In this document: one piece after another, positions 1 to 38,868 of the stretch | Position numbering within the stretch: the stretch's first letter is position 1 | How the letters are laid out: every line of letters starts with the position of its first letter | Origin: Naegleria gruberi | Lineage: Eukaryota | Assembly: GCA_000004985.1 (NCBI GenBank) | Contig: GG738845.1 | DNA: 64,000 nt | Strand: one strand, 5' to 3' | Position numbers and translations under genes: made by a program | Notes under the pieces: model-generated | Database searches by the model: none | Told to the model about the DNA's origin: nothing | Seen by the model: the letters and a program-made list of their open reading frames with translations, nothing else

Positions 1-2798
1 AGACAAAGATTAAATTTATGACTGATGGTATTTTGATGAGAGAAATTCAAACAGATCCTCTTTTGCTTAAATATTCAGTTATTGCTTTGGATGAAATTCA
101 CGAAAGAAATGTAAATACAGACATATTGATTGGTTGGTTATCCAGATTTATACCTCAAAGAAATAGAATGGCAGCTGCTGGATTAACAACTCCAGAGGGA
201 CAAACTATAACACCACTCAAATTAATTATCATGAGTGCTACACTCCAATTAGAAAACTTTACTGATAACAAGAAGCTTTTCGCTAATCCACCTCCTGTTG
301 TTGATGTTCAATCAAGACAATATCCAGTTGTTGTTCATTTTAATAAGAGAACAATTTTCAATGACTATATGGAGGCTGCATTCAAGAAGGTTGTAAAAAT
401 TCATGAAAGTTTACCAAATGGTGGTATTTTAATTTTTCTTACTGGTAGAAAAGAGATTGAATTTTTGGTTGAAAAGTTGAAAAATTACTCAACCAAACGT
501 TATGTTCAAATTGTTAAAAAAGAGATGGAAAGGAAGAAATCTCTTAAAGAAAAGGAAGAGGAAAATCAAAGAACGGTAGAGGAAGAAGAAGAATTAATTA
601 ATCAACTGGGTGATTTGAGTGATAGTGATGATGACGGTGATGAAATTTCCTCCAGTAAGAAGGCTGTTGGACTTAAGGAAGATGAAAATTTATTTGACGA
701 CGACCAAGATCAATCCGAGCAAGAAGAAAAAGAAGAAAAAGAAATCAAAGAAGAGGAAGAAAAGGGAAAGAGTGAAACTGTTGTTCTCTTCCAAGAAAAT
801 ATTAAATCCGATAAGGTAAAGAAGGAAGGTGAGGAAAATAATGCCAAGCTCAATAGTAAGAAAAAGGCTGAAAGATTGCATGTACTTCCACTCTATGCTA
901 TGCTTCAACCTCATGAACAAATGAAAGTTTTCAACAATCCGCCTGAGGGTCATAGATTAGTTGTTGTGGCTACCAACGTTGCTGAAACCAGTTTGACCAT
1001 TCCAAATGTTAGATATGTTGTTGATTGTGGTCGTACTAAGGAAAAACAATTTGAAAAGAGTACTGGTATTTTCAAATTCCAAATTGGTTGGACTTCACAA
1101 GCAAGTGCCAATCAGAGAGCAGGTCGTGCAGGTCGTACAGGACCTGGTCATTGTTACAGATTATTCAGCAGTGCTGTGTTTGATCAAAGATTCAAGAATT
1201 ATACTGAACCAGACATTCTCAAAGCCCCAATAGAAAATATCATTTTACAAATGAAGAGTATGGGTATCAAACAAGTCGAAAAATTCCCATTCCCAACTCC
1301 TCCCGATGCTGATTCTGTGAAAAAAGGGGTTGACGCTTTAGTCAATTTAGGTGCTCTTGATAAATTTATCTCAAAAGAGGGAAATATTGAAACAATGATT
1401 ACCAAAATGGGTTCTGCCATGAATAGATTCCCACTCCATCCTAGATTTGCAAAAATGTTAATTCTCTCAAACAATAATCCCGACTTACTATTATATACTG
1501 CAGGTGCTGTGAGTGTAATGACGGTCCAACAAATATTTATGCATGATAACCATTTAACTCTTTTGAAAGAAAAGATTGAGAGAAGAAAACAAGAAGAATT
1601 GAAAGAAAAATTCTCTCGATTAGGAATGAAATCAGATGCCATTGATAAGAACAAGAAGTTGCAAATCGACTTGGAAGAAATTGAAGAAGAGCAAGCTGCA
1701 GAAAGTTTGGAAGAAAATTTATCTGAAGAACAAATCAATGAAGAGAAACAATATTTGGATGAGCAAGAGCTTGAAATGAAGACTAAATGTAAGGAAATTA
1801 AGAAAATGTGGTCCCATCCTCTCAGTGATCATTTGGCAATGCTTAAGGCAGTTGGTGCCTATTTATATGCAGATGATGCAAAAGAGTTTTGTCTCGAATA
1901 TATGTTACATCAAAAGAATATGAGAGAAGTTAGAAAGTTGCATAGACAATTATTAAATACAGTTAGATCAGAATTAAAAGCATCTGCCTTGGAGATTGAT
2001 ACAGACGAAACTGAAGTTGATATTCACGAGAAGGATGAAACTGTTGAATTCCCAGAACCAAAAGATGATGAAGATGAACAATATCAAGTTGATACTGCTA
2101 TCAGACAAGTTATTTGTGCTGGTATGGTCGATCAAGTTGCCAGATTAGCCACTGTGGAAGATTTGGCTCATATGGATGTTTCATATAAGGAAACAAGCAA
2201 GCCTTATGTAACTCTTTCATTGGGAAGGTCTGTACCTGTATTTATTCATCCTGGATCTTGTCTCTTTGGTCGTCATCCAGAGTATGTTGTATTTACCGAA
2301 TTGAGTAAGAGTAGAAAGAATAAGACTTATATGAGAGGAGTGACAGCAATTGAACCAAACTGGATTTCTAGATTTGGTAACAGCAAGTGTGGATTTGTTA
2401 AATTTTCAGACCCTCTCGAATCTCCAGCTCCATTCTATGACTCTGTTGATGATATGGTTAAATGCTTTGTGAGACCAACAATTCGCCAATCGGCTACGGG
2501 TGTTGTTTGGACTCTTCCAATAGAACCTGTTGAGTTTAAGGATGGATCAAGACAGGTTAATGTCTTTGCTAAATCTATTCTCGAAGGAAAGGTGTTCGAA
2601 GGTCTAAAACTTTCAAAAGAAACTATGGTCAACCTTCCAACAATCATTCAATCAAAACGTTTCTTGGACTTGACAATATCTCTAAAGAAAGTGTTCCCAA
2701 ATGGCCTTAAATGCTCCAAAGCCAAATTGCAAGCAAAATGGAATGAAGACTCATCCTTCCTTAGGAAAGAACTTTCAAACCTTGGGTTAAAGTTTTAA
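1..2798 (+). CDS. DHX37: DEAH-box RNA helicase DHX37/Dhr1-like; 5' end lies upstream of the window
   Basis: The frame is open from the window edge and the track ORF is 18..2798. It carries the motifs TDGILMREI, DEIHERNVNTDIL, LIIMSATL, VVATNVAETSLTIP and QRAGRAGRTGPGHCYRLFS. A long acidic K/E/D-rich insert lies between the RecA domains, followed by a C-terminal OB/HA2 region. It aligns along its whole length with human DHX37. The stop codon is TAA at 2796-2798. Confidence 0.88.
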   Translation, partial: TKIKFMTDGILMREIQTDPLLLKYSVIALDEIHERNVNTDILIGWLSRFIPQRNRMAAAGLTTPEGQTITPLKLIIMSATLQLENFTDNKKLFANPPPVVDVQSRQYPVVVHFNKRTIFNDYMEAAFKKVVKIHESLPNGGILIFLTGRKEIEFLVEKLKNYSTKRYVQIVKKEMERKKSLKEKEEENQRTVEEEEELINQLGDLSDSDDDGDEISSSKKAVGLKEDENLFDDDQDQSEQEEKEEKEIKEEEEKGKSETVVLFQENIKSDKVKKEGEENNAKLNSKKKAERLHVLPLYAMLQPHEQMKVFNNPPEGHRLVVVATNVAETSLTIPNVRYVVDCGRTKEKQFEKSTGIFKFQIGWTSQASANQRAGRAGRTGPGHCYRLFSSAVFDQRFKNYTEPDILKAPIENIILQMKSMGIKQVEKFPFPTPPDADSVKKGVDALVNLGALDKFISKEGNIETMITKMGSAMNRFPLHPRFAKMLILSNNNPDLLLYTAGAVSVMTVQQIFMHDNHLTLLKEKIERRKQEELKEKFSRLGMKSDAIDKNKKLQIDLEEIEEEQAAESLEENLSEEQINEEKQYLDEQELEMKTKCKEIKKMWSHPLSDHLAMLKAVGAYLYADDAKEFCLEYMLHQKNMREVRKLHRQLLNTVRSELKASALEIDTDETEVDIHEKDETVEFPEPKDDEDEQYQVDTAIRQVICAGMVDQVARLATVEDLAHMDVSYKETSKPYVTLSLGRSVPVFIHPGSCLFGRHPEYVVFTELSKSRKNKTYMRGVTAIEPNWISRFGNSKCGFVKFSDPLESPAPFYDSVDDMVKCFVRPTIRQSATGVVWTLPIEPVEFKDGSRQVNVFAKSILEGKVFEGLKLSKETMVNLPTIIQSKRFLDLTISLKKVFPNGLKCSKAKLQAKWNEDSSFLRKELSNLGLKF

Positions 2799-25113: not shown

Positions 25114-25668
25114 TTATTCTAAAACCATTTTTTCTTCATTTTCCTTTTGTTCCTTACTTCCATTATATACAAGTCTATCAAAGGAGCCAAATATTTTTTC
25201 CTTATCAGGAATATCAAGGTTTGTTAGGATGGCAGGTATCTTTGACATTATTTTTGGAAGTTTGGGTATTGGATTTTCTTTTGTTAGTTCATCACTCGAC
25301 AAACAATGTGCAAATATACAACAATTTTCATCCTTTACATTTTTTTGAACAAAAGTCTTGTACCAAAATTCCAATTCCTTTACATGATTAATGTTTGAAG
25401 GATTATACACTATAATACATCCGTTCATGTCCTTCATTATTGCAGGCCAACAATTTTCGAAATTTCGATCTCCAGAAATATCCCAAAGTTCTACCGACAC
25501 CTTTTCCATTGATTGCATCTCTCTATCACATTCGCAAATTCTTAGACCCATAGTTGGTCTGTATTCATTTGAAAATTCCTTATATCCACTAAGAAAATTA
25601 CAAATAGCACTCTTGCCACTCTTTTTTGGTCCAACAACAATAAGTTTTACAGTTTGTGAGTCACTCAT
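25114..25668 (-). CDS. IFT22: Intraflagellar transport protein 22 (IFT22 / RABL5), atypical small GTPase
   Basis: It begins MSDSQTVKLIVVGPKKSGKSAICNFL. The blocks ELWDISGDRNFENCWPAIMKDMNGCIIVYNP and ELEFWYKTFVQ are collinear with human IFT22: FELWDCGGDAKFESCWPALMKDAHGVVIVFN and MEMWYSCFVQ. It is 184 aa. The ATG is at 25668. Confidence 0.75.
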   Translation of the reverse strand: MSDSQTVKLIVVGPKKSGKSAICNFLSGYKEFSNEYRPTMGLRICECDREMQSMEKVSVELWDISGDRNFENCWPAIMKDMNGCIIVYNPSNINHVKELEFWYKTFVQKNVKDENCCIFAHCLSSDELTKENPIPKLPKIMSKIPAILTNLDIPDKEKIFGSFDRLVYNGSKEQKENEEKMVLE

Positions 25669-33569: not shown

Positions 33570-35303
33570 TTATTGACCTCTCAACCTTTTATATTCAGCT
33601 AGAGTGATTCTCTTATTATTCGAATTTTTCTTCTTGTTTGTGGTTGGTTGAATTTTACGTGTTGTCATAATTGGTTGAGTTGTATCATTCAAATCAAGTT
33701 GGAAGTCATGAGCACTAACTAAACTGTTCTCTGGAGTTTCAGAAGTTTTACGGGATTCAGTTTGCTTTGATTGTTGTGATGTGGTTTCTTTGGCAGGGGT
33801 TGGTTCGTCTGTGTCAGCCAACACAAAGAAAGATGAGGCTGTTTTTCTTCTAGAGAATGGATCTAATTGACCAATAGCTTGATTTGCATTGCCGGCAGAA
33901 TTTTGATTTTTCTTTCTTTGCTCGTGTGCAGCTTGATCCATAGCTCTATTCTTGTTGTTGATATATCCCAAACGTTGTGCTGTTGGTGAAAGGAAATCGA
34001 TTTTAGAATATTCTCTCTCCAATTTTCTTAATTCTTCCTCCCATTTTTGTCTTTCTTGTTTTAGTGAGGATTCTGATTGAACTTCACTTCTACCATCATC
34101 TTCATCAAATTCAGAAAATTGATTAGGCTTGCTTTGATGTGTTCTCAAGTAGAGTTCATCATCAACTAGTTTGATCTTTGTTTTAACAGCACTTATTTCT
34201 CTGGCAATAGATTGCTTATTCTTGACTATAAGTCCTCCTTTTTGAGTTCTTCTTTCTTGAACCATGTTCTCAATTTGTTCATCTGTATATCTGAACTCCT
34301 TTAAAGATTTCCATTTTTGAATCTTTTCATCAATAAACTTTCTTGTTGGGAATTTCTCATTTACTTTTTCCATTTCAGCCTTCCATGCCTTATACTCATT
34401 CTCTTCTATTTCCTTGTTGTCACTAATAGCACTCATTTGCCAAGTTCTCTTTTGTACTCCAAATTTGAGAAGCAATCCCTTCTTAGTTTTTTCAGAATTA
34501 TTTGTTCCAAAAAGATAGTCCTTGGTCATGTCTTGAACTTGAATAATTTGGCACAATCTGTAGGTTTTCTTTTTTGCACGTTCATTGAATCCAACAAGAA
34601 CTCTAACAAAAGCTTTTTCCACGCTGCTGGCAAAGTATGGTTCTTTAAACTCCTTTTCCAATGCTGATCTTCTAATTAAAATTCTTTCTATATCTTTTTT
34701 AGTAATTTTACATTTTGAGGATTCCTCTTCATTATCACTACCATCACCAAATATATTTTGGTCTTCTTCGTCACTCTCTTCATGGTGTGACTGGCTTGTT
34801 TGTTGTTGTTGACGACCTCTGGATGGTTGTACAGGTTCTTGATCATCATCATCTTCGTAATCCTCATCATCATCAGAAGATGGTTTTGATCTTCTGGTAC
34901 GACGAGCTGTTGATGCCTTCTTTGTATTTTTCCTTACTGGTTCATCGTCTTCTTCGTCCAATGACAAGTCAACCTCATCATTTTGTTTTTGTTCAATAGG
35001 TTTACTTGCAGATTGTGGTTTTCTTCCTCTTTCTATCAATTTACCTTGTTTTCTAAGTACTTCCTTTTTCTTTCTTAGGTCGAGTCTTCTCTCGTATCTT
35101 TCCGAGATGATTTCTTCACGGTCGACATCACCCAGTGATTCCAAGTATCTTCTATCATTCTCATCACCCTTTAAATCATCATCATATCCATCATCAAGAT
35201 CCTCTTCATAAACAAAATCATCACCACTGGTTGGTTTTGTTTTCTTTGATTGATTTTCTAATTCGTCATCACTAATATTTTTTCCTCTACCTCGTTTAGA
35301 CAT
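33570..35303 (-). CDS. RTF1: RTF1 (Paf1-complex subunit) with Plus3 domain
   Basis: The ATG is at 35303. An acidic, basic N-terminus precedes the Plus3 domain ILIRRSALEKEFKEPYFASSVEKAFVRVLVG...YRLCQIIQVQD. A C-terminal coiled-coil and basic tail follow. It is 577 aa. Confidence 0.75.
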   Translation of the reverse strand: MSKRGRGKNISDDELENQSKKTKPTSGDDFVYEEDLDDGYDDDLKGDENDRRYLESLGDVDREEIISERYERRLDLRKKKEVLRKQGKLIERGRKPQSASKPIEQKQNDEVDLSLDEEDDEPVRKNTKKASTARRTRRSKPSSDDDEDYEDDDDQEPVQPSRGRQQQQTSQSHHEESDEEDQNIFGDGSDNEEESSKCKITKKDIERILIRRSALEKEFKEPYFASSVEKAFVRVLVGFNERAKKKTYRLCQIIQVQDMTKDYLFGTNNSEKTKKGLLLKFGVQKRTWQMSAISDNKEIEENEYKAWKAEMEKVNEKFPTRKFIDEKIQKWKSLKEFRYTDEQIENMVQERRTQKGGLIVKNKQSIAREISAVKTKIKLVDDELYLRTHQSKPNQFSEFDEDDGRSEVQSESSLKQERQKWEEELRKLEREYSKIDFLSPTAQRLGYINNKNRAMDQAAHEQRKKNQNSAGNANQAIGQLDPFSRRKTASSFFVLADTDEPTPAKETTSQQSKQTESRKTSETPENSLVSAHDFQLDLNDTTQPIMTTRKIQPTTNKKKNSNNKRITLAEYKRLRGQ

Positions 35304-35370
35304 TTTTTAATATTTATTTTTATAAATTAAAGTTGTATGCGTTACTTTCACCCTTGTTTACTATTACACA

Positions 35371-37155
35371 TTATTGTTTGGAACAACCAAAACTCTTGTG
35401 GATAGAGTCGAAACTGGCCTTAACTTGATCGTTGTACATTTGTTGGTAAGTGTAACTCTTCACGTTGGCAATCTTCTTTGAAGGTAATAATAAACCAGTT
35501 TGATGCATTACCAAACTTTCATTACTCATTGGATCAACCATTGAGTAAATCATTGAGAAAGCATCAGAACCATCATTGAGTTTAATCATTCCATCTCTTT
35601 CAATGTTAACTGGTGAACCACCAGAGTACATTTGAATCATTTGTAATTCAGCCTTCATTAATTGGGACAAACCGTCTAAATCAGAAACTGGCATCATTTG
35701 ATTTGGTTCAGCAATTGAAACCATGGTTTCCAATGGAAGACTGTTTTCATCGTTTTGAGCCAACAACGTAACAACTGGATTGTCACTATTATTTTCCTTT
35801 GCTGTAGCTTGCAATTTAATTGGTTGGGAAATCTTAAAGTTGAATTCAGTATTTTCATAAATCAATGATGAACCAGATGAAGCATTAACATCTTCAAAGA
35901 ATTTCATCTTCTTTACCATAGTAAGGAAATCAACTTTGAATTTTTCACTAATTTGTGGCAATGATCTTCCTAAAATTGTGTAAATACTAGATCCACGTTG
36001 GAAATAAATTTCAATAAAATCATAGTCAGCTTGGACTTCAGACTTTTCTTTCTCGCTAGCAACATAAGAGTGAGCTTTATCGCTATAGGCAATAAGTTCA
36101 CCATTACTGTGTCCAATTTTCATTTGTCCAAGAGTCATGTATCCTGTCTTGGTTGAATGAAGAGACTTTTGTTCAGAAACAAACTGTTCAAAGTCTTGAG
36201 CTTCATTAGAGATGATGACAATTTCCTTATCAATATTATCTTCCTTTGAATAGTGAATCATATAAGTTTCAACATTCTTATTTCCCAAATAGAGAGCACG
36301 ATCAGTGGCAGATCCGATAGCTAGGAAATCAGTTGATGGCAAATTGAGAATATATCCAAGTTTGTCATTTCTGTAAGAAACTCTTCCAAACAATTCTCCC
36401 TTTTGCAATTTGACAGTACGAATAATATTTTTAGTTCTACCAATATTTGATTCAAAGGCCTTCATGTCAGTACCAATATGTTGGAACATTAAAACTTTGT
36501 TAGGTTCTTCTGGATTTTTGAAAGCAATGGCAAAGATTTTAACTTTTTGTTGTCCTGTTAATTCAGAAATCATTTGGCAGGCTTCAATTCCATTAACCTT
36601 GATACGATCAGTTTCTTCTAAAACTCTGAAAGGAACTTGAGTTTGAGCAAGAGCAGAAACGTTATTCTTCATATATTGCTTGATATCAAGCTCAGCTGGT
36701 ACGTCTTCAATAGTGATCATGGTAGCATCACCACCACCTCCCATCATCATATTCATATTAGAGGCATCAATGAGAGTAATTGTGGTAATTGGTCCTTGAG
36801 AGTGGACTTCCACTTCATATTGTGCTGGCATCTTGAAGGAAACTCCAATCTTTTTCTGATTGCAAACCTTCCATGATGAAATTCCAGAAGCGTCTTCAAC
36901 ATTGTACAAGATCCATTCAGGTTCAGTTGGAACTGGTGTAGCTACTTCAACAGGCTTTTCAGTTGCAGTCTTGATGGAAACCGCTAACTTTTTAGTACTC
37001 TTATTTTGAGAGAAAACTTTATAGAGAACGAAACCAACAACAGAAGCAGCAGCTGAGCCTAGTACTGTTGCAAGTCCCTTGTTTTCCTTCAATGCGTTGA
37101 CAATATTTTCCCACAATGAAGAATCGGATGAAGTTGTTGTAGAAGAATTAACCAT
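35371..37155 (-). CDS. Hypothetical 594-aa protein with an N-terminal signal-anchor or TM helix; no recognised domain
   Basis: It has an ATG at 37155 and a single long ORF. The N-terminus is S/T-rich, followed by the hydrophobic helix GLATVLGSAAASVVGFVLYKVF. It is 67 nt downstream of the RTF1 start on the same strand. Confidence 0.45.
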   Translation of the reverse strand: MVNSSTTTSSDSSLWENIVNALKENKGLATVLGSAAASVVGFVLYKVFSQNKSTKKLAVSIKTATEKPVEVATPVPTEPEWILYNVEDASGISSWKVCNQKKIGVSFKMPAQYEVEVHSQGPITTITLIDASNMNMMMGGGGDATMITIEDVPAELDIKQYMKNNVSALAQTQVPFRVLEETDRIKVNGIEACQMISELTGQQKVKIFAIAFKNPEEPNKVLMFQHIGTDMKAFESNIGRTKNIIRTVKLQKGELFGRVSYRNDKLGYILNLPSTDFLAIGSATDRALYLGNKNVETYMIHYSKEDNIDKEIVIISNEAQDFEQFVSEQKSLHSTKTGYMTLGQMKIGHSNGELIAYSDKAHSYVASEKEKSEVQADYDFIEIYFQRGSSIYTILGRSLPQISEKFKVDFLTMVKKMKFFEDVNASSGSSLIYENTEFNFKISQPIKLQATAKENNSDNPVVTLLAQNDENSLPLETMVSIAEPNQMMPVSDLDGLSQLMKAELQMIQMYSGGSPVNIERDGMIKLNDGSDAFSMIYSMVDPMSNESLVMHQTGLLLPSKKIANVKSYTYQQMYNDQVKASFDSIHKSFGCSKQ

Positions 37156-37356
37156 TTTTTTGTTTCAAATTTTATTAATTTTTTTCAATCAAAACGAATT
37201 AAAAAATAATAAAACTTAATAAAATTGGCTAGAAAATTTTTTGAATCAAAGAAACAGGTCAATAAAGAAACTTTATTGATTCATTATTTGCTATCAATTC
37301 TGTCAACATTCTTTTGCCATTTGAGTCACACATTTAAGGTTTGTCACTTTCCTCTT

Positions 37357-37932
37357 TTAAAAGAAGACATCAGTTTCCTTATGATATTGATATCTGTCTC
37401 CTTCATTGATAGGATGTTTGTAGTTCTTCTTTGGTTGGACTGGGCCTTTAACTCCAGTCTTTGTTTTGGCTTCATATTCAAGTTGTTCCATATAAATTTT
37501 GTACTTTTTAACTCTCTTTTCACATTGTATAGGTGTCCATTGTAGAATATTAACATCAGTATCCCAAGCCATTGCTGTATAGTTTTCCCCATGTTTGTCA
37601 ATTAGTGCTTGCAGAGTTTTTCTTTCCGATTCGTGAACAATAAAGCACAATCTCGATTTGAATTGTGGCTTTTTACTAATGATTTCATCTAAAATTTCTG
37701 GCTTTTTTTCTTTTGGTAGTGTTTCGGCAACTTGGTGATTCTCTTCTGACGGTTTGTTAGGGTCAGCCACGAGGTCCAATCGAGCATAATTGTATTTAGC
37801 AGTCAACTCCCTGTCCCATACTTTTCCGGTACTACTTTTTAATTGATATTGTCTTTTTTGTTTCTTCTTTTCCTTGTGAATTTCGGTTTTTGTTCTTCTG
37901 ATCGTCGACTTGAGAGCACTAAATTTTCCCAT
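37357..37932 (-). CDS. NOP16: Nucleolar protein 16 (NOP16)-like
   Basis: It is a 191-aa basic protein. The block ARLDLVADPNKP...KTLQALIDKHGENYTAMAWDTDVNILQWTPIQCEKRVKKYK is collinear with human NOP16: AEMGLAVDPNRA...RDLIDYVRYMVENHGEDYKAMARDEKNYYQDTPKQIRSKINVYK. The ATG at 37932 is only 48 nt downstream of the Rac gene stop. Confidence 0.6.
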   Translation of the reverse strand: MGKFSALKSTIRRTKTEIHKEKKKQKRQYQLKSSTGKVWDRELTAKYNYARLDLVADPNKPSEENHQVAETLPKEKKPEILDEIISKKPQFKSRLCFIVHESERKTLQALIDKHGENYTAMAWDTDVNILQWTPIQCEKRVKKYKIYMEQLEYEAKTKTGVKGPVQPKKNYKHPINEGDRYQYHKETDVFF

Positions 37933-37980
37933 TTTTTTTTGTTCTAACTTTTATTTGATGGTGTTACAATTAATGAAGGT

Positions 37981-38868
37981 TTAAAGCAAAGTGCATTTGC
38001 CTGGCTTCTTTTCTTGTGTCTTCTCTGTTGGAGGATACATACCATTATAGAGAGCTTCTTCGAAAACTTCTCTCACACCCTCATTCAACATGGCACTACA
38101 TTCCATAAATTTAACAGCTTTGATTGACTTGCAAATTTGGTTTGCTGCTTCAACAGAGACTGGTTCAACACCTTGATCCTTGAGTTTGGCCAACATGTTC
38201 TTGTCGTTTCTAATATCCGCCTTGGTTCCTACGAGAATGTAAGGACAATTTGGTCTGTGCTTTTTAACTTCTGGAACCCATTTATTCTTTACGTTTTCCA
38301 AAGAAGTTGGACTGTCGATGGAGAAACACAACAAGAATACATTAGCGTCAGGGTAGGAGAGTGGTCTATTAAGCTTTGATAAGGGAATTATTTTTCAAAA
38401 TATGATCACTTACCGAAGATTATCGTAGCTAATATTGTTAATCAATATAATTTTACACTTGAATTCACTTACTCTGTGAGGAATTAATATTAAGGTTCAT
38501 TATTATTTGTTATAATAGGAAAACTTGTTAACTTCAATATTTACCTTCCTACAAAAAGGTTCTTGCATTACATTTACGTTCGTACTTACTTGTCCAGCAG
38601 TATCCATCAATAAAAACTTGATGGTTTGATTGTTGAGTTCAATTTCTGATGAATAGTTATCGAAAATTCTAATAAGGAGAACGTTTTAAACATGTGGTTA
38701 TTGTAAATACATACGTTGGGATATACTTTTCAGGGAATACACCTTCAGCAAAGACGTGCAAGAGACATGTTTTACCCTGATAATAGATTTAAGGATTTTA
38801 AAATTATGCTCAGTACATACCACAGCACCATCTCCAACAACAACGAGACGAACAGTTTGACTTTCCAT
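37981..38868 (-). CDS. Rac/Rho-family small GTPase (CAAX = CTLL), 5 or more exons; the switch-II junction is unresolved
   Basis: Exon 1 is 38868..38821 (MESQTVRLVVVGDGAV). Intron 1 is 38777..38820 (gtatgt...tatcag, 44 nt). Exon 2 is 38776..38715 (GKTCLLHVFAEGVFPEKYIPT). Intron 2 is 38669..38714 (46 nt). Exon 3 is 38668..38590 (IFDNYSSEIELNNQTIKFLLMDTAGQ). A putative micro-exon is 38428..38414 (YDNLR). Intron 4 is 38366..38413 (48 nt). Exon 5 is 38365..37981 (PLSYPDANVFLLCFSIDSP...ILVGTKADI...ECSAM...KCTLL*). The 161-nt span 38429..38589 should supply the invariant Q-E-(D/E) of switch II, but no canonical splice does so. Confidence 0.7.

What the first reader, a model, noticed from the sequence alone, without database searches (positions are those of the whole stretch)
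38414..38589. Rac-like GTPase lacks an encodable switch-II 'QE(D/E)' under any canonical splice
Exons encode ...LMDTAGQ (ending at 38590, before a perfect GTAAGT) and later the 15-nt segment C-TAC-GAT-AAT-CTT-CG (YDNLR, 38428..38414), followed by PLSYPDANVFLLCF.... Exon 3 ends in phase 0. The YDNLR segment must start in phase 2. No GT/AG combination in the 161-nt interval 38429..38589 supplies the needed 'GA(A/G)GA'. That interval is about three times the typical intron length. Three explanations are possible. One is a cryptic micro-exon with non-canonical splice sites. Another is an atypical or degenerate GTPase, a pseudogene. The third is a small assembly error. Switch II carries the catalytic Gln and the conserved Glu.
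Basis: seen in the sequence. Interest (0 to 1): 0.55.

Follow-up and report, generated by a model that had tools for sequence, protein, structure and literature searches.

The report
Rho GTPase gene with one-base exon
The "missing" switch-II residues of this Naegleria gruberi Rho-family GTPase are most likely supplied by two tiny exons, 4 bases and 1 base long, with ordinary GT-AG borders; the same 1-base exon sits in a distant Naegleria relative, and the public protein model of the gene misses both exons.

Summary
The coordinates, phases and 161-nt gap are as described. The key claim is wrong: one canonical GT-AG path through the gap supplies GAAGA. It is tttttgtag|GAAG|gtaaat (38548..38545) followed by cctcacag|A|gtaagt (38473), and it gives DTAGQ-ED-YDNLR. 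The gap is therefore three introns of 41, 71 and 44 nt, the normal size here, separated by a 4-nt and a 1-nt exon. Each base of the Asp65 codon (G|A|C) lies in a different exon.

The window is Naegleria gruberi NEG-M.
- **Conservation:** an unnamed Naegleria-like lineage has the same cag|A|gtaagt 1-nt exon in the same codon, inside unrelated intron sequence.
- **Other relatives:** N. fowleri and N. lovaniensis keep only the phase-2 intron, with GAAGA joined to exon 3. Willaertia has no intron at this site.
- **Chance:** dinucleotide shuffles give such a path 17 times in 20,000, and once with strong donors.
- **Assembly error excluded:** an independent contig is 99.92% identical with no gaps.
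- **Pseudogene unlikely:** pN 0.14 against pS 0.77.

The public model XP_002683489.1 reads QVSTNLNR and is a mis-model. No transcript could be found, so the splicing itself is inferred. One-base exons are already known in plants (APC11, VPS55).

The parts
38821..38868 (-). Exon 1 (48 nt), ATG at 38868; MESQTVRLVVVGDGAV (P-loop start)
   Evidence: The intron position after this exon is shared with N. fowleri, N. lovaniensis, Willaertia and L006.
38777..38820 (-). Intron 1, 44 nt, GTATGT...CAG
38715..38776 (-). Exon 2 (62 nt), GKTCLLHVFAEGVFPEKYIPT(AC-)
38669..38714 (-). Intron 2, 46 nt, GTATGT...TAG
38590..38668 (-). Exon 3 (79 nt), ends ...LMDTAGQ (CAA) in phase 0
38549..38589 (-). Intron 3a, 41 nt, GTAAGT...CCTTTTTGTAG; found only in N. 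gruberi
   Evidence: Absent in L006, N. fowleri, N. lovaniensis and Willaertia.
38545..38548 (-). Micro-exon of 4 nt, GAAG (Glu64 plus the first base of Asp65)
   Evidence: In the four other taxa these bases are joined directly to exon 3.
38474..38544 (-). Intron 3b, 71 nt, GTAAAT...CCTCACAG (phase 1, inside the Asp65 codon)
   Evidence: There is an intron at the same position in L006.
38473..38473 (-). Micro-exon of 1 nt, A (second base of the Asp65 codon), in the context cag|A|gtaagt
   Evidence: The same 1-nt exon in the same codon is at L006:1653, also in L007.
38429..38472 (-). Intron 3c, 44 nt, GTAAGT...ATATTAG (phase 2, inside the Asp65 codon); shared by all three Naegleria lineages
38414..38428 (-). 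Micro-exon of 15 nt, C TAC GAT AAT CTT CG (third base of Asp65, then YDNL and two bases of Arg70)
   Evidence: N. fowleri (CTATGATCATATTCG) and N. lovaniensis (TTATGACCACATTCG) have an orthologous 15-nt exon with the same borders.
38366..38413 (-). Intron 6, 48 nt, GTAAGT...TTAATAG
37981..38365 (-). Last exon (385 nt including the stop), R-PLSYPD...KCTLL* (CAAX)

Best explanation
This is a functional seven-exon Rho-family (Rac/Cdc42-like) GTPase gene of Naegleria gruberi. Its exons are 48, 62, 79, 4, 1, 15 and 385 nt.

The 161-nt 'intron' is really three ordinary short GT-AG introns of 41, 71 and 44 nt. They separate a 4-nt exon (GAAG) and a 1-nt exon (A). Splicing all of them gives ...GGA CAA|GAA G|A|C TAC GAT AAT CTT CG|A CCA..., that is DTAGQEDYDNLRPLSYPD, a normal switch II.

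Inferred mechanism: Naegleria introns are short enough to be recognised individually (intron definition), so exon length is not limiting. The 3' AG of intron 3b lies inside the stretch that U1 would pair with at the 5' site of intron 3c. The two introns therefore probably cannot be engaged at the same moment and are removed one after the other, as at recursive splice sites, but leaving one base behind.

What is shown: the sequence, the uniqueness of the path, its improbability by chance, its conservation in a second lineage, and selective constraint on the gene. What is inferred: that the mRNA is spliced this way, and the order of intron removal.
For: 1. **Unique path.** It is the only GT-AG path that yields Q-E-[DE]-Y.
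2. **Not chance.** 17 of 20,000 shuffles give any such path, and 1 of 20,000 does so with strong donors.
3. **Normal intron sizes.** The sub-introns are 41, 71 and 44 nt. The gene's other introns are 44 to 48 nt. The credible short candidate introns of the window's other genes are about 39 to 62 nt, from a heuristic list of 27 candidates with median 55 nt.
4. **Conserved in a second lineage.** L006 and L007 are an unnamed Naegleria-like lineage with the same gene order. Its Nop16 protein is 71% identical to both N. gruberi and N. fowleri and 48% to Willaertia. It reads ...CAAGAAG|gtacgt..41 nt..ctcag|A|gtaagt..41 nt..atccag|TTACGAT. The 1-nt exon is the only in-frame GT-AG solution there. Chance is 3.2% for AG|A|GT and 0.03% with a GTAWGT donor. 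The intron interiors show no detectable similarity between the species.
5. **Orthologues fix the frame.** N. fowleri and N. lovaniensis have GAAGA|gtaagt...ag|YTAYGAYCAYATTCG|gt. The phase-2 intron and the 15-nt exon are therefore orthologous, and exactly five bases are needed upstream.
6. **The motif is near-universal.** 229 of 230 Rho-family hits have DT[AS]GQE[DET]Y[DE]. The only exception is the public N. gruberi model itself.
7. **Better Pfam score.** The Ras-family score rises from 153.5 bits (public model) to 168.6 bits.
8. **Selective constraint.** pN is 0.139 and pS is 0.772 against N. fowleri.
9. **Sequence independently confirmed.**
10. **Precedent.** Constitutive, conserved 1-nt exons missed by annotation are established in plant APC11 and VPS55 (PMC4674806, PMC8831610).
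Against: - No cDNA, EST or RNA-seq evidence could be reached. Three protein searches, one exact look-up and one junction-DNA scan found nothing that spans the junction.
- Intron 3a and the 4-nt exon have no cross-species support. They occur only in N. gruberi.
- A competing in-frame GT-AG path exists: a single 5-nt exon AGTAA giving QSNYDNLR. Its Pfam score is only 3.5 bits lower.
- No 1-nt exon has been shown experimentally in any heterolobosean. A search of the paper library for Naegleria together with microexon found nothing relevant.
Confidence: 0.82

Rival explanations
1. The public JGI/NCBI model is right. Exon 3 runs on through GTAAGTACGAAC, uses the donor GTAAAT at about 38577 and an acceptor inside the last intron (..caaag|CTTAATAG). 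This skips the 15-nt exon and gives DTAGQVSTNLNRPLSYPD, an atypical GTPase without the switch-II EDYD.
For: It is a canonical GT-AG, in-frame, 197-aa model and is the deposited annotation (XP_002683489.1, EFC50745.1, D2UY73).
Against: - It is the only one of 230 Rho-family proteins without QE[DET]Y[DE].
- Its Pfam Ras score is 15 bits lower.
- It discards a 15-nt segment that is an exon with identical borders in N. fowleri and N. lovaniensis.
- It reads through a perfect GTAAGT donor.
- It leaves unexplained why GAAG and A sit between canonical sites, and why the 1-nt exon recurs in L006.
Confidence: 0.04
2. A single 5-nt micro-exon AGTAA (38473..38469; cacag|AGTAA|gtgaat) is used. This gives DTAGQSNYDNLR, a divergent switch II.
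For: It is a canonical, in-frame GT-AG path that needs only one micro-exon. Its Pfam score, 165.1 bits, is close to that of the ED model.
Against: - It replaces the near-invariant Glu and Asp, since 229 of 230 relatives have QE.Y.
- It uses the weak donor GTGAAT that overlaps a perfect GTAAGT.
- It needs a 116-nt intron, which is longer than the gene's other introns (44 to 48 nt) and the credible short introns of the window.
- It has no counterpart in L006, where the only solution is the 1-nt A.
Confidence: 0.05
3. The N. gruberi copy is a recently disabled gene. The apparent micro-exons are not spliced productively, and transcripts carry premature stops.
For: No transcript evidence was found. 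Three very small exons in a row (4, 1 and 15 nt) are an exceptionally demanding substrate for splicing.
Against: - There is strong purifying selection over the whole CDS (pN 0.139, pS 0.772).
- Start codon, all splice sites, G boxes and CAAX are intact.
- The sequence is identical in a second strain.
- The 1-nt exon architecture has persisted in a lineage as distant as N. fowleri.
Confidence: 0.06
4. Sequencing or assembly error in the reference, with an indel hiding a contiguous GAAGA.
Against: The independent metagenome contig L003 is gap-free and identical across the gap. It differs by 4 substitutions over 4,840 nt, none of them in the gap.
Confidence: 0.01

Closest known systems
Plant 1-nt microexons in APC11 and VPS55 (Guo & Liu 2015, PMC4674806; Yu et al. 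2022, PMC8831610)
   Same: - A single coding nucleotide flanked by two canonical GT-AG introns, with a strong GTRAGT donor directly after it.
- Conserved across distant species.
- Systematically missing from reference annotations, which gives wrong protein models.
- In some lineages the base has become part of the neighbouring exon through loss of an intron. N. fowleri and N. lovaniensis show this here.
   Different: - The organism is a heterolobosean (Discoba).
- The flanking introns are only 41 to 71 nt.
- The 1-nt exon sits in a run of three micro-exons (4, 1 and 15 nt).
- It lies in the catalytic switch II of a GTPase.
- It is not yet verified by transcripts, whereas the plant cases are verified by RT-PCR, RNA-seq and reporter assays.
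Recursive splice sites ('zero-length exons', AG|GTAAGT) of long Drosophila and vertebrate introns (from my own knowledge of the literature, not checked here)
   Same: A 3' splice site and a 5' splice site lie next to each other and cannot both be occupied at once, so removal must be stepwise. The context CAG|A|GTAAGT differs from a ratchet point by one retained base.
   Different: Recursive sites subdivide very long introns and leave nothing in the mRNA. Here the introns are tiny and one coding base is kept. The order of removal is unknown.
Rho-family small GTPases (Rac1, Cdc42, RhoA)
   Same: - Pfam Ras score of 168.6 bits.
- The best solved relatives are human Rac1 (5fi0_B, 216.7 bits) and Cdc42 (about 214 bits).
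- GDGAVGKT, DTAGQEDYD, TKxD, ECSA, a Rho-insert-like segment (DIRNDKNMLAKLKDQG) and a CAAX end (CTLL).
   Different: It cannot be assigned to Rac, Cdc42 or Rho, because the scores are nearly equal. It belongs to a Naegleria/Willaertia-specific orthologue group with a conserved EALYNG[LM][YF]PP tail.
Fungal stwintrons (spliceosomal twin introns; from my own knowledge, not checked here)
   Same: Closely packed splice signals that require consecutive splicing reactions.
   Different: In a stwintron an internal intron interrupts a splice signal of the outer intron. Here every intron has complete signals of its own, and coding bases lie between them.

Membership tests
Ultra-short (1-nt) spliceosomal microexon | Exon bases bounded upstream by an intron ending in AG and downstream by an intron starting with GT, with both introns of workable length | tested here: met
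   cctcacag|A|gtaagt at 38473, with flanking introns of 71 and 44 nt. tttttgtag|GAAG|gtaaat at 38548..38545, with flanking introns of 41 and 71 nt.
Ultra-short (1-nt) spliceosomal microexon | Including the exon is needed to keep the reading frame and conserved residues | tested here: met
   It is the only GT-AG path giving QE[DE]Y. 229 of 230 relatives carry that motif. N. fowleri and N. lovaniensis show that GAAGA must precede the phase-2 intron.
Ultra-short (1-nt) spliceosomal microexon | Conservation of the exon and its splice sites in other species while the introns diverge | tested here: met
   L006:1653 and L007 have ctcag|A|gtaagt in the same codon. No interior intron similarity was found. 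This holds for the 1-nt exon only. The 4-nt exon is specific to N. gruberi.
Ultra-short (1-nt) spliceosomal microexon | Presence in mature mRNA (junction reads, cDNA, RT-PCR) | not testable with these tools
   No transcript-derived sequence across the junction was found in the protein collection or in the JGI metagenome contigs.
Rho-family small GTPase | Ras-superfamily G domain with G1 to G5 motifs | tested here: met
   Pfam PF00071 at 168.6 bits, E = 1e-49. GDGAVGKT, DTAGQE, TKAD and ECSA are visible in the alignment.
Rho-family small GTPase | Rho insert between G4 and G5, and closest similarity to Rho/Rac/Cdc42 | tested here: met
   The alignment to Rac1 (5fi0_B) is continuous through Rac1's DLRDDKDTIEKLKEKK, with no gap at the insert.
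Rho-family small GTPase | C-terminal CAAX prenylation box | tested here: met
   The protein ends ...KKPGKCTLL*.
Rho-family small GTPase | GTP binding and hydrolysis, and effector signalling | not testable with these tools
   This is biochemistry and was not addressed.
Processed or decayed pseudogene | Relaxed constraint, frame disruptions or lost signals | tested here: not met
   pN 0.139 against pS 0.772. The ORF is intact once the micro-exons are included.

The most novel reading that the evidence does not exclude
A constitutive 1-nt exon, preceded in N. gruberi by a 4-nt exon and followed by a 15-nt exon, has been maintained across deep divergences within Naegleria. It places the three bases of one switch-II Asp codon in three different exons. 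This would be, as far as I could find, the first 1-nt spliceosomal exon outside plants. It would show that the ability to splice around a single nucleotide is not a plant peculiarity but a general property of intron-defined splicing in eukaryotes far from plants. The three lineages (N. gruberi, L006, N. fowleri/lovaniensis) would give a natural series of intron gain or loss within five bases.
Probability: 0.75. Interest if true: 0.6.

Novelty: new member of a known kind. Interest (0 to 1): 0.5.

Why it matters
- **It settles the puzzle.** The gene is an ordinary, constrained Rho-family GTPase, not a switch-II-less oddity.
- **It corrects a public sequence.** XP_002683489.1 / UniProt D2UY73 carries seven wrong residues in switch II. 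Anything built on it, such as structure models, family alignments or surveys of Naegleria Rho GTPases, inherits the error.
- **It is a good test case for splicing.** If confirmed by transcripts, it is a rare case of a 1-nt exon. Such exons were previously shown in plant APC11 and VPS55. This one is in a distant eukaryote with introns of about 45 nt. That makes it a compact substrate, with three introns in 161 nt, for asking how a spliceosome handles adjacent 3' and 5' sites one base apart, and in what order.
- **It warns about annotation.** Gene finders and RNA-seq aligners will miss such exons in protist genomes.

Tried and rejected
- **Transcript evidence.** I searched the 5.8-billion protein collection with the full spliced protein, residues 57-197, and a 68-aa junction-centred query. 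I also did an exact look-up of the spliced protein and scanned the JGI metagenome contigs for the spliced junction DNA. All were negative.
- **More species.** A profile scan of metagenome contigs gave only generic Rho genes at 56% identity or less over the full-length matches (up to 62% over short segments), with no further orthologues.
- **Origin of the extra introns by duplication.** Local alignments of all sub-introns and orthologous introns against shuffles showed no meaningful similarity. The one pair with z = 3.5 is between non-homologous introns.
- **RNA structure bringing the exons together.** The fold of 38600..38405 has z = +1.07, so there is none.
- **A second CAG|A|GTATGT in the window (2278..2287, + strand).** It lies inside an uninterrupted ORF (HPEYVV), so it is chance.
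- **Other Rho paralogues in the window.** There are none, only a weak small-GTPase match at 25662..25378.
- **Literature.** There were no papers on Naegleria microexons or on this protein's accession numbers.
- **Alternative 1-nt exon T at 38457 (QEVY).** Rejected because it has a 28-nt downstream intron, a GTAAAA donor, a non-conserved Val, and no counterpart in L006.

Full report
**What is in the sequence.** The gene lies on the minus strand. It starts with ATG at 38868 and ends with TAA after ...KCTLL at 37981.
- Exon 3 ends with ...ATG GAT ACT GCT GGA CAA at 38590 in phase 0 and is followed by GTAAGT.
- A 15-nt segment, C TAC GAT AAT CTT CG, lies at 38428..38414 between ...attag and GTAAGT.
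- The last exon begins at 38365 (A CCA CTC TCC TAC CCT GAC...).
- The gap 38589..38429 is 161 nt.

All the coordinates and phases in the finding are therefore correct.

**The key claim is wrong.** I listed every chain of one to three internal exons bounded by AG and GT in the gap. Twenty chains are in frame and free of stops. Exactly one restores Q-E-D-Y. It uses a 4-nt exon GAAG (38548..38545, context tttttgtag|GAAG|gtaaat) and a 1-nt exon A (38473, context cctcacag|A|gtaagt).
- With these two exons the gene has exons of 48, 62, 79, 4, 1, 15 and 385 nt and introns of 44, 46, 41, 71, 44 and 48 nt.
- The CDS is 594 nt and encodes ...LMDTAGQEDYDNLRPLSYPD....
- The Asp65 codon is G|A|C, with each base in a different exon.
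- A crude search for introns that join long stop-free stretches elsewhere in the window gave 27 candidates with a median of 55 nt. Some are spurious. The credible short AT-rich ones are about 39 to 62 nt and mostly GTAAGT or GTATGT ... TAG.

**Chance.** Of 20,000 dinucleotide-preserving shuffles of the gap, 17 give any GT-AG path to GA[AG]GA. Only 1 does so with donors of the type GTA[ATG][AG]T.

**Organism and public annotation.** The neighbouring Nop16 protein is identical to XP_002683488.1 of Naegleria gruberi NEG-M.
- The deposited model of this gene is XP_002683489.1 / EFC50745.1 / D2UY73. It is also 197 aa but reads ...DTAGQVSTNLNRPLSYPD.
- That model extends exon 3 through GTAAGTACGAAC, uses the next GTAAAT as donor and an AG inside the last intron as acceptor, and skips the 15-nt exon.
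- Of the 230 Rho-family proteins retrieved that have a DT[AS]G motif, 229 continue with QE[DET]Y[DE]. The single exception is this model.
- The Pfam Ras score is 153.5 bits for the public model and 168.6 bits for the micro-exon model. The N. fowleri orthologue scores 173.2 bits.

**Comparative evidence.** Four related loci were read. All have the same Rho-then-Nop16 gene order.
- **Willaertia magna** (L002): CAA GAA GAT TAC GAT CAT ATT AGA CCA is contiguous, with no intron at this site.
- **N. fowleri** (L001) and **N. lovaniensis** (L005)...GGACA[GA]GAAGA|gtaagt...ag|[CT]TATGA[TC]CA[TC]ATTCG|gt.... They have the phase-2 intron inside the Asp codon and a 15-nt exon with the same borders as in N. 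gruberi, but GAAGA is joined to exon 3.
- **L006** is a metagenome contig from an unnamed Naegleria-like organism. Its Nop16 is 71% identical to both N. gruberi and N. fowleri and 48% to Willaertia. It reads ...GGTCAAGAAG|gtacgt(41 nt)ctcag|A|gtaagt(41 nt)atccag|TTACGATCATATTCGGCCA.
  - This is the same 1-nt exon, in the same codon position, with the same cag|A|gtaagt context.
  - Here it is the only in-frame GT-AG solution. Chance is 3.2% for AG|A|GT and 0.03% with a strong donor.
- **L007**, a second assembly from a different project, is 99.35% identical to L006 and has the same bases there.

The intron interiors show no detectable similarity between species. The splice-site/A/splice-site arrangement has therefore been kept while everything around it changed.

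**Intron presence by position.**

| Position | Taxa with an intron |
|---|---|
| After Val16 | all five |
| Inside Thr37 | all five |
| After Gln63 (3a) | N. gruberi only |
| Asp65, phase 1 (3b) | N. gruberi and L006 |
| Asp65, phase 2 (3c) | N. gruberi, L006, N. fowleri, N. lovaniensis |
| Arg70, phase 2 | N. gruberi, N. fowleri, N. lovaniensis |
| A Cys codon further on | Willaertia only |

- **Assembly error:** excluded. The ENA metagenome contig L003 equals window 38746..33907 with 4 substitutions, no gaps, and none of the substitutions in the gap.
- **Pseudogene:** unlikely. The protein is 80% identical to N. fowleri's. Differences are 0.139 per nonsynonymous site and 0.772 per synonymous site. 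All G boxes, the Rho insert and the CAAX box are present.

**What it is and how it probably works.** The protein is a Rho-family GTPase. It is about equally close to human Rac1 (216.7 bits) and Cdc42 (about 214 bits). The unusual part is the gene structure.

My inference, not shown here, is as follows. Naegleria's introns of about 45 nt are recognised as units, so a very short exon is not in itself an obstacle. In CAG|A|GTAAGT, however, the 3' AG of intron 3b lies within the bases that U1 pairs with at the donor of intron 3c. The two introns are therefore most likely removed one after the other, much as at recursive splice sites, but leaving one base in the mRNA. The exon bases next to each donor are the same before and after removal of the neighbouring intron (AAG|GTAAAT and AGA|GTAAGT), so either order is possible. 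No RNA structure supports the arrangement (z = +1.07). Failure to remove any of these introns runs into a stop codon.

**Relation to what is known.** Constitutive 1-nt exons are established in plants. APC11 was shown by Guo and Liu (PMC4674806). APC11 and VPS55 are conserved across land plants, were validated by RNA-seq and RT-PCR, are missing from all reference annotations, and in some lineages are merged into a neighbouring exon (PMC8831610). The present case has the same properties apart from transcript proof. It adds a different eukaryotic lineage, very short introns, and a run of 4-, 1- and 15-nt exons. I found no paper on microexons in Naegleria or on this protein. I therefore rate it a new member of a known kind.

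**Limits.** No transcript could be reached with the tools, and no further orthologous loci were found.
- The 4-nt exon and intron 3a rest on N. gruberi alone.
- A 5-nt-exon alternative (AGTAA, giving QSNYDNLR) is canonical and cannot be excluded from sequence alone. It uses a weak donor that overlaps a perfect one, destroys two near-invariant residues, and has no counterpart in L006.
- Overall confidence in the 4-nt plus 1-nt model is about 0.8.

Noticed in passing
window 37981..38868 (-): The public protein XP_002683489.1 / UniProt D2UY73 for this gene carries seven wrong residues (QVSTNLNR instead of QEDYDNLR), because the model skips three micro-exons. It is the only one of 230 Rho-family hits without the QE.Y motif.
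   Followed up: yes
window 35371..37155 (-): The uninterrupted ORF here is 594 aa and is found as such in ENA and Logan. The N. gruberi RefSeq model in the same 90% cluster (XP_002683487.1) is 928 aa, so that model may include extra exons or merge neighbouring sequence.
   Followed up: no
L006 1..4458 and L007 1..3513: An unnamed Naegleria-like organism appears in two unrelated metagenomes (ENA ERZ27315067 and JGI 3300002220). The two contigs are 99.35% identical to each other. The organism is about equally distant from N. gruberi and N. fowleri (Nop16 71% to both) and far from Willaertia (48%). It keeps the same Rho-then-Nop16 gene order.
   Followed up: partly
L003 (matches window 33907..38746): An N. 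gruberi strain 99.92% identical to NEG-M is present in the ENA metagenome assembly ERZ929261 (PRJEB11402). One of its 4 substitutions is a synonymous CCT to CCA change at window 38350, inside this gene.
   Followed up: yes
window 2278..2287 (+): A second CAG|A|GTATGT string looks like another 1-nt exon. It lies inside a long uninterrupted ORF (...HPEYVV...), so it is a chance match.
   Followed up: yes
window 25378..25662 (-): A weak small-GTPase-like match (28% identity over 99 aa to the Rho protein, E = 3e-5). It is probably another Ras-superfamily gene and was not examined.
   Followed up: no
L002 2340..2400: The Willaertia magna orthologue has its own intron in a Cys codon (FLV-C|YSVD). 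None of the Naegleria lineages has an intron there, so intron positions in this small gene change quickly across Heterolobosea.
   Followed up: partly
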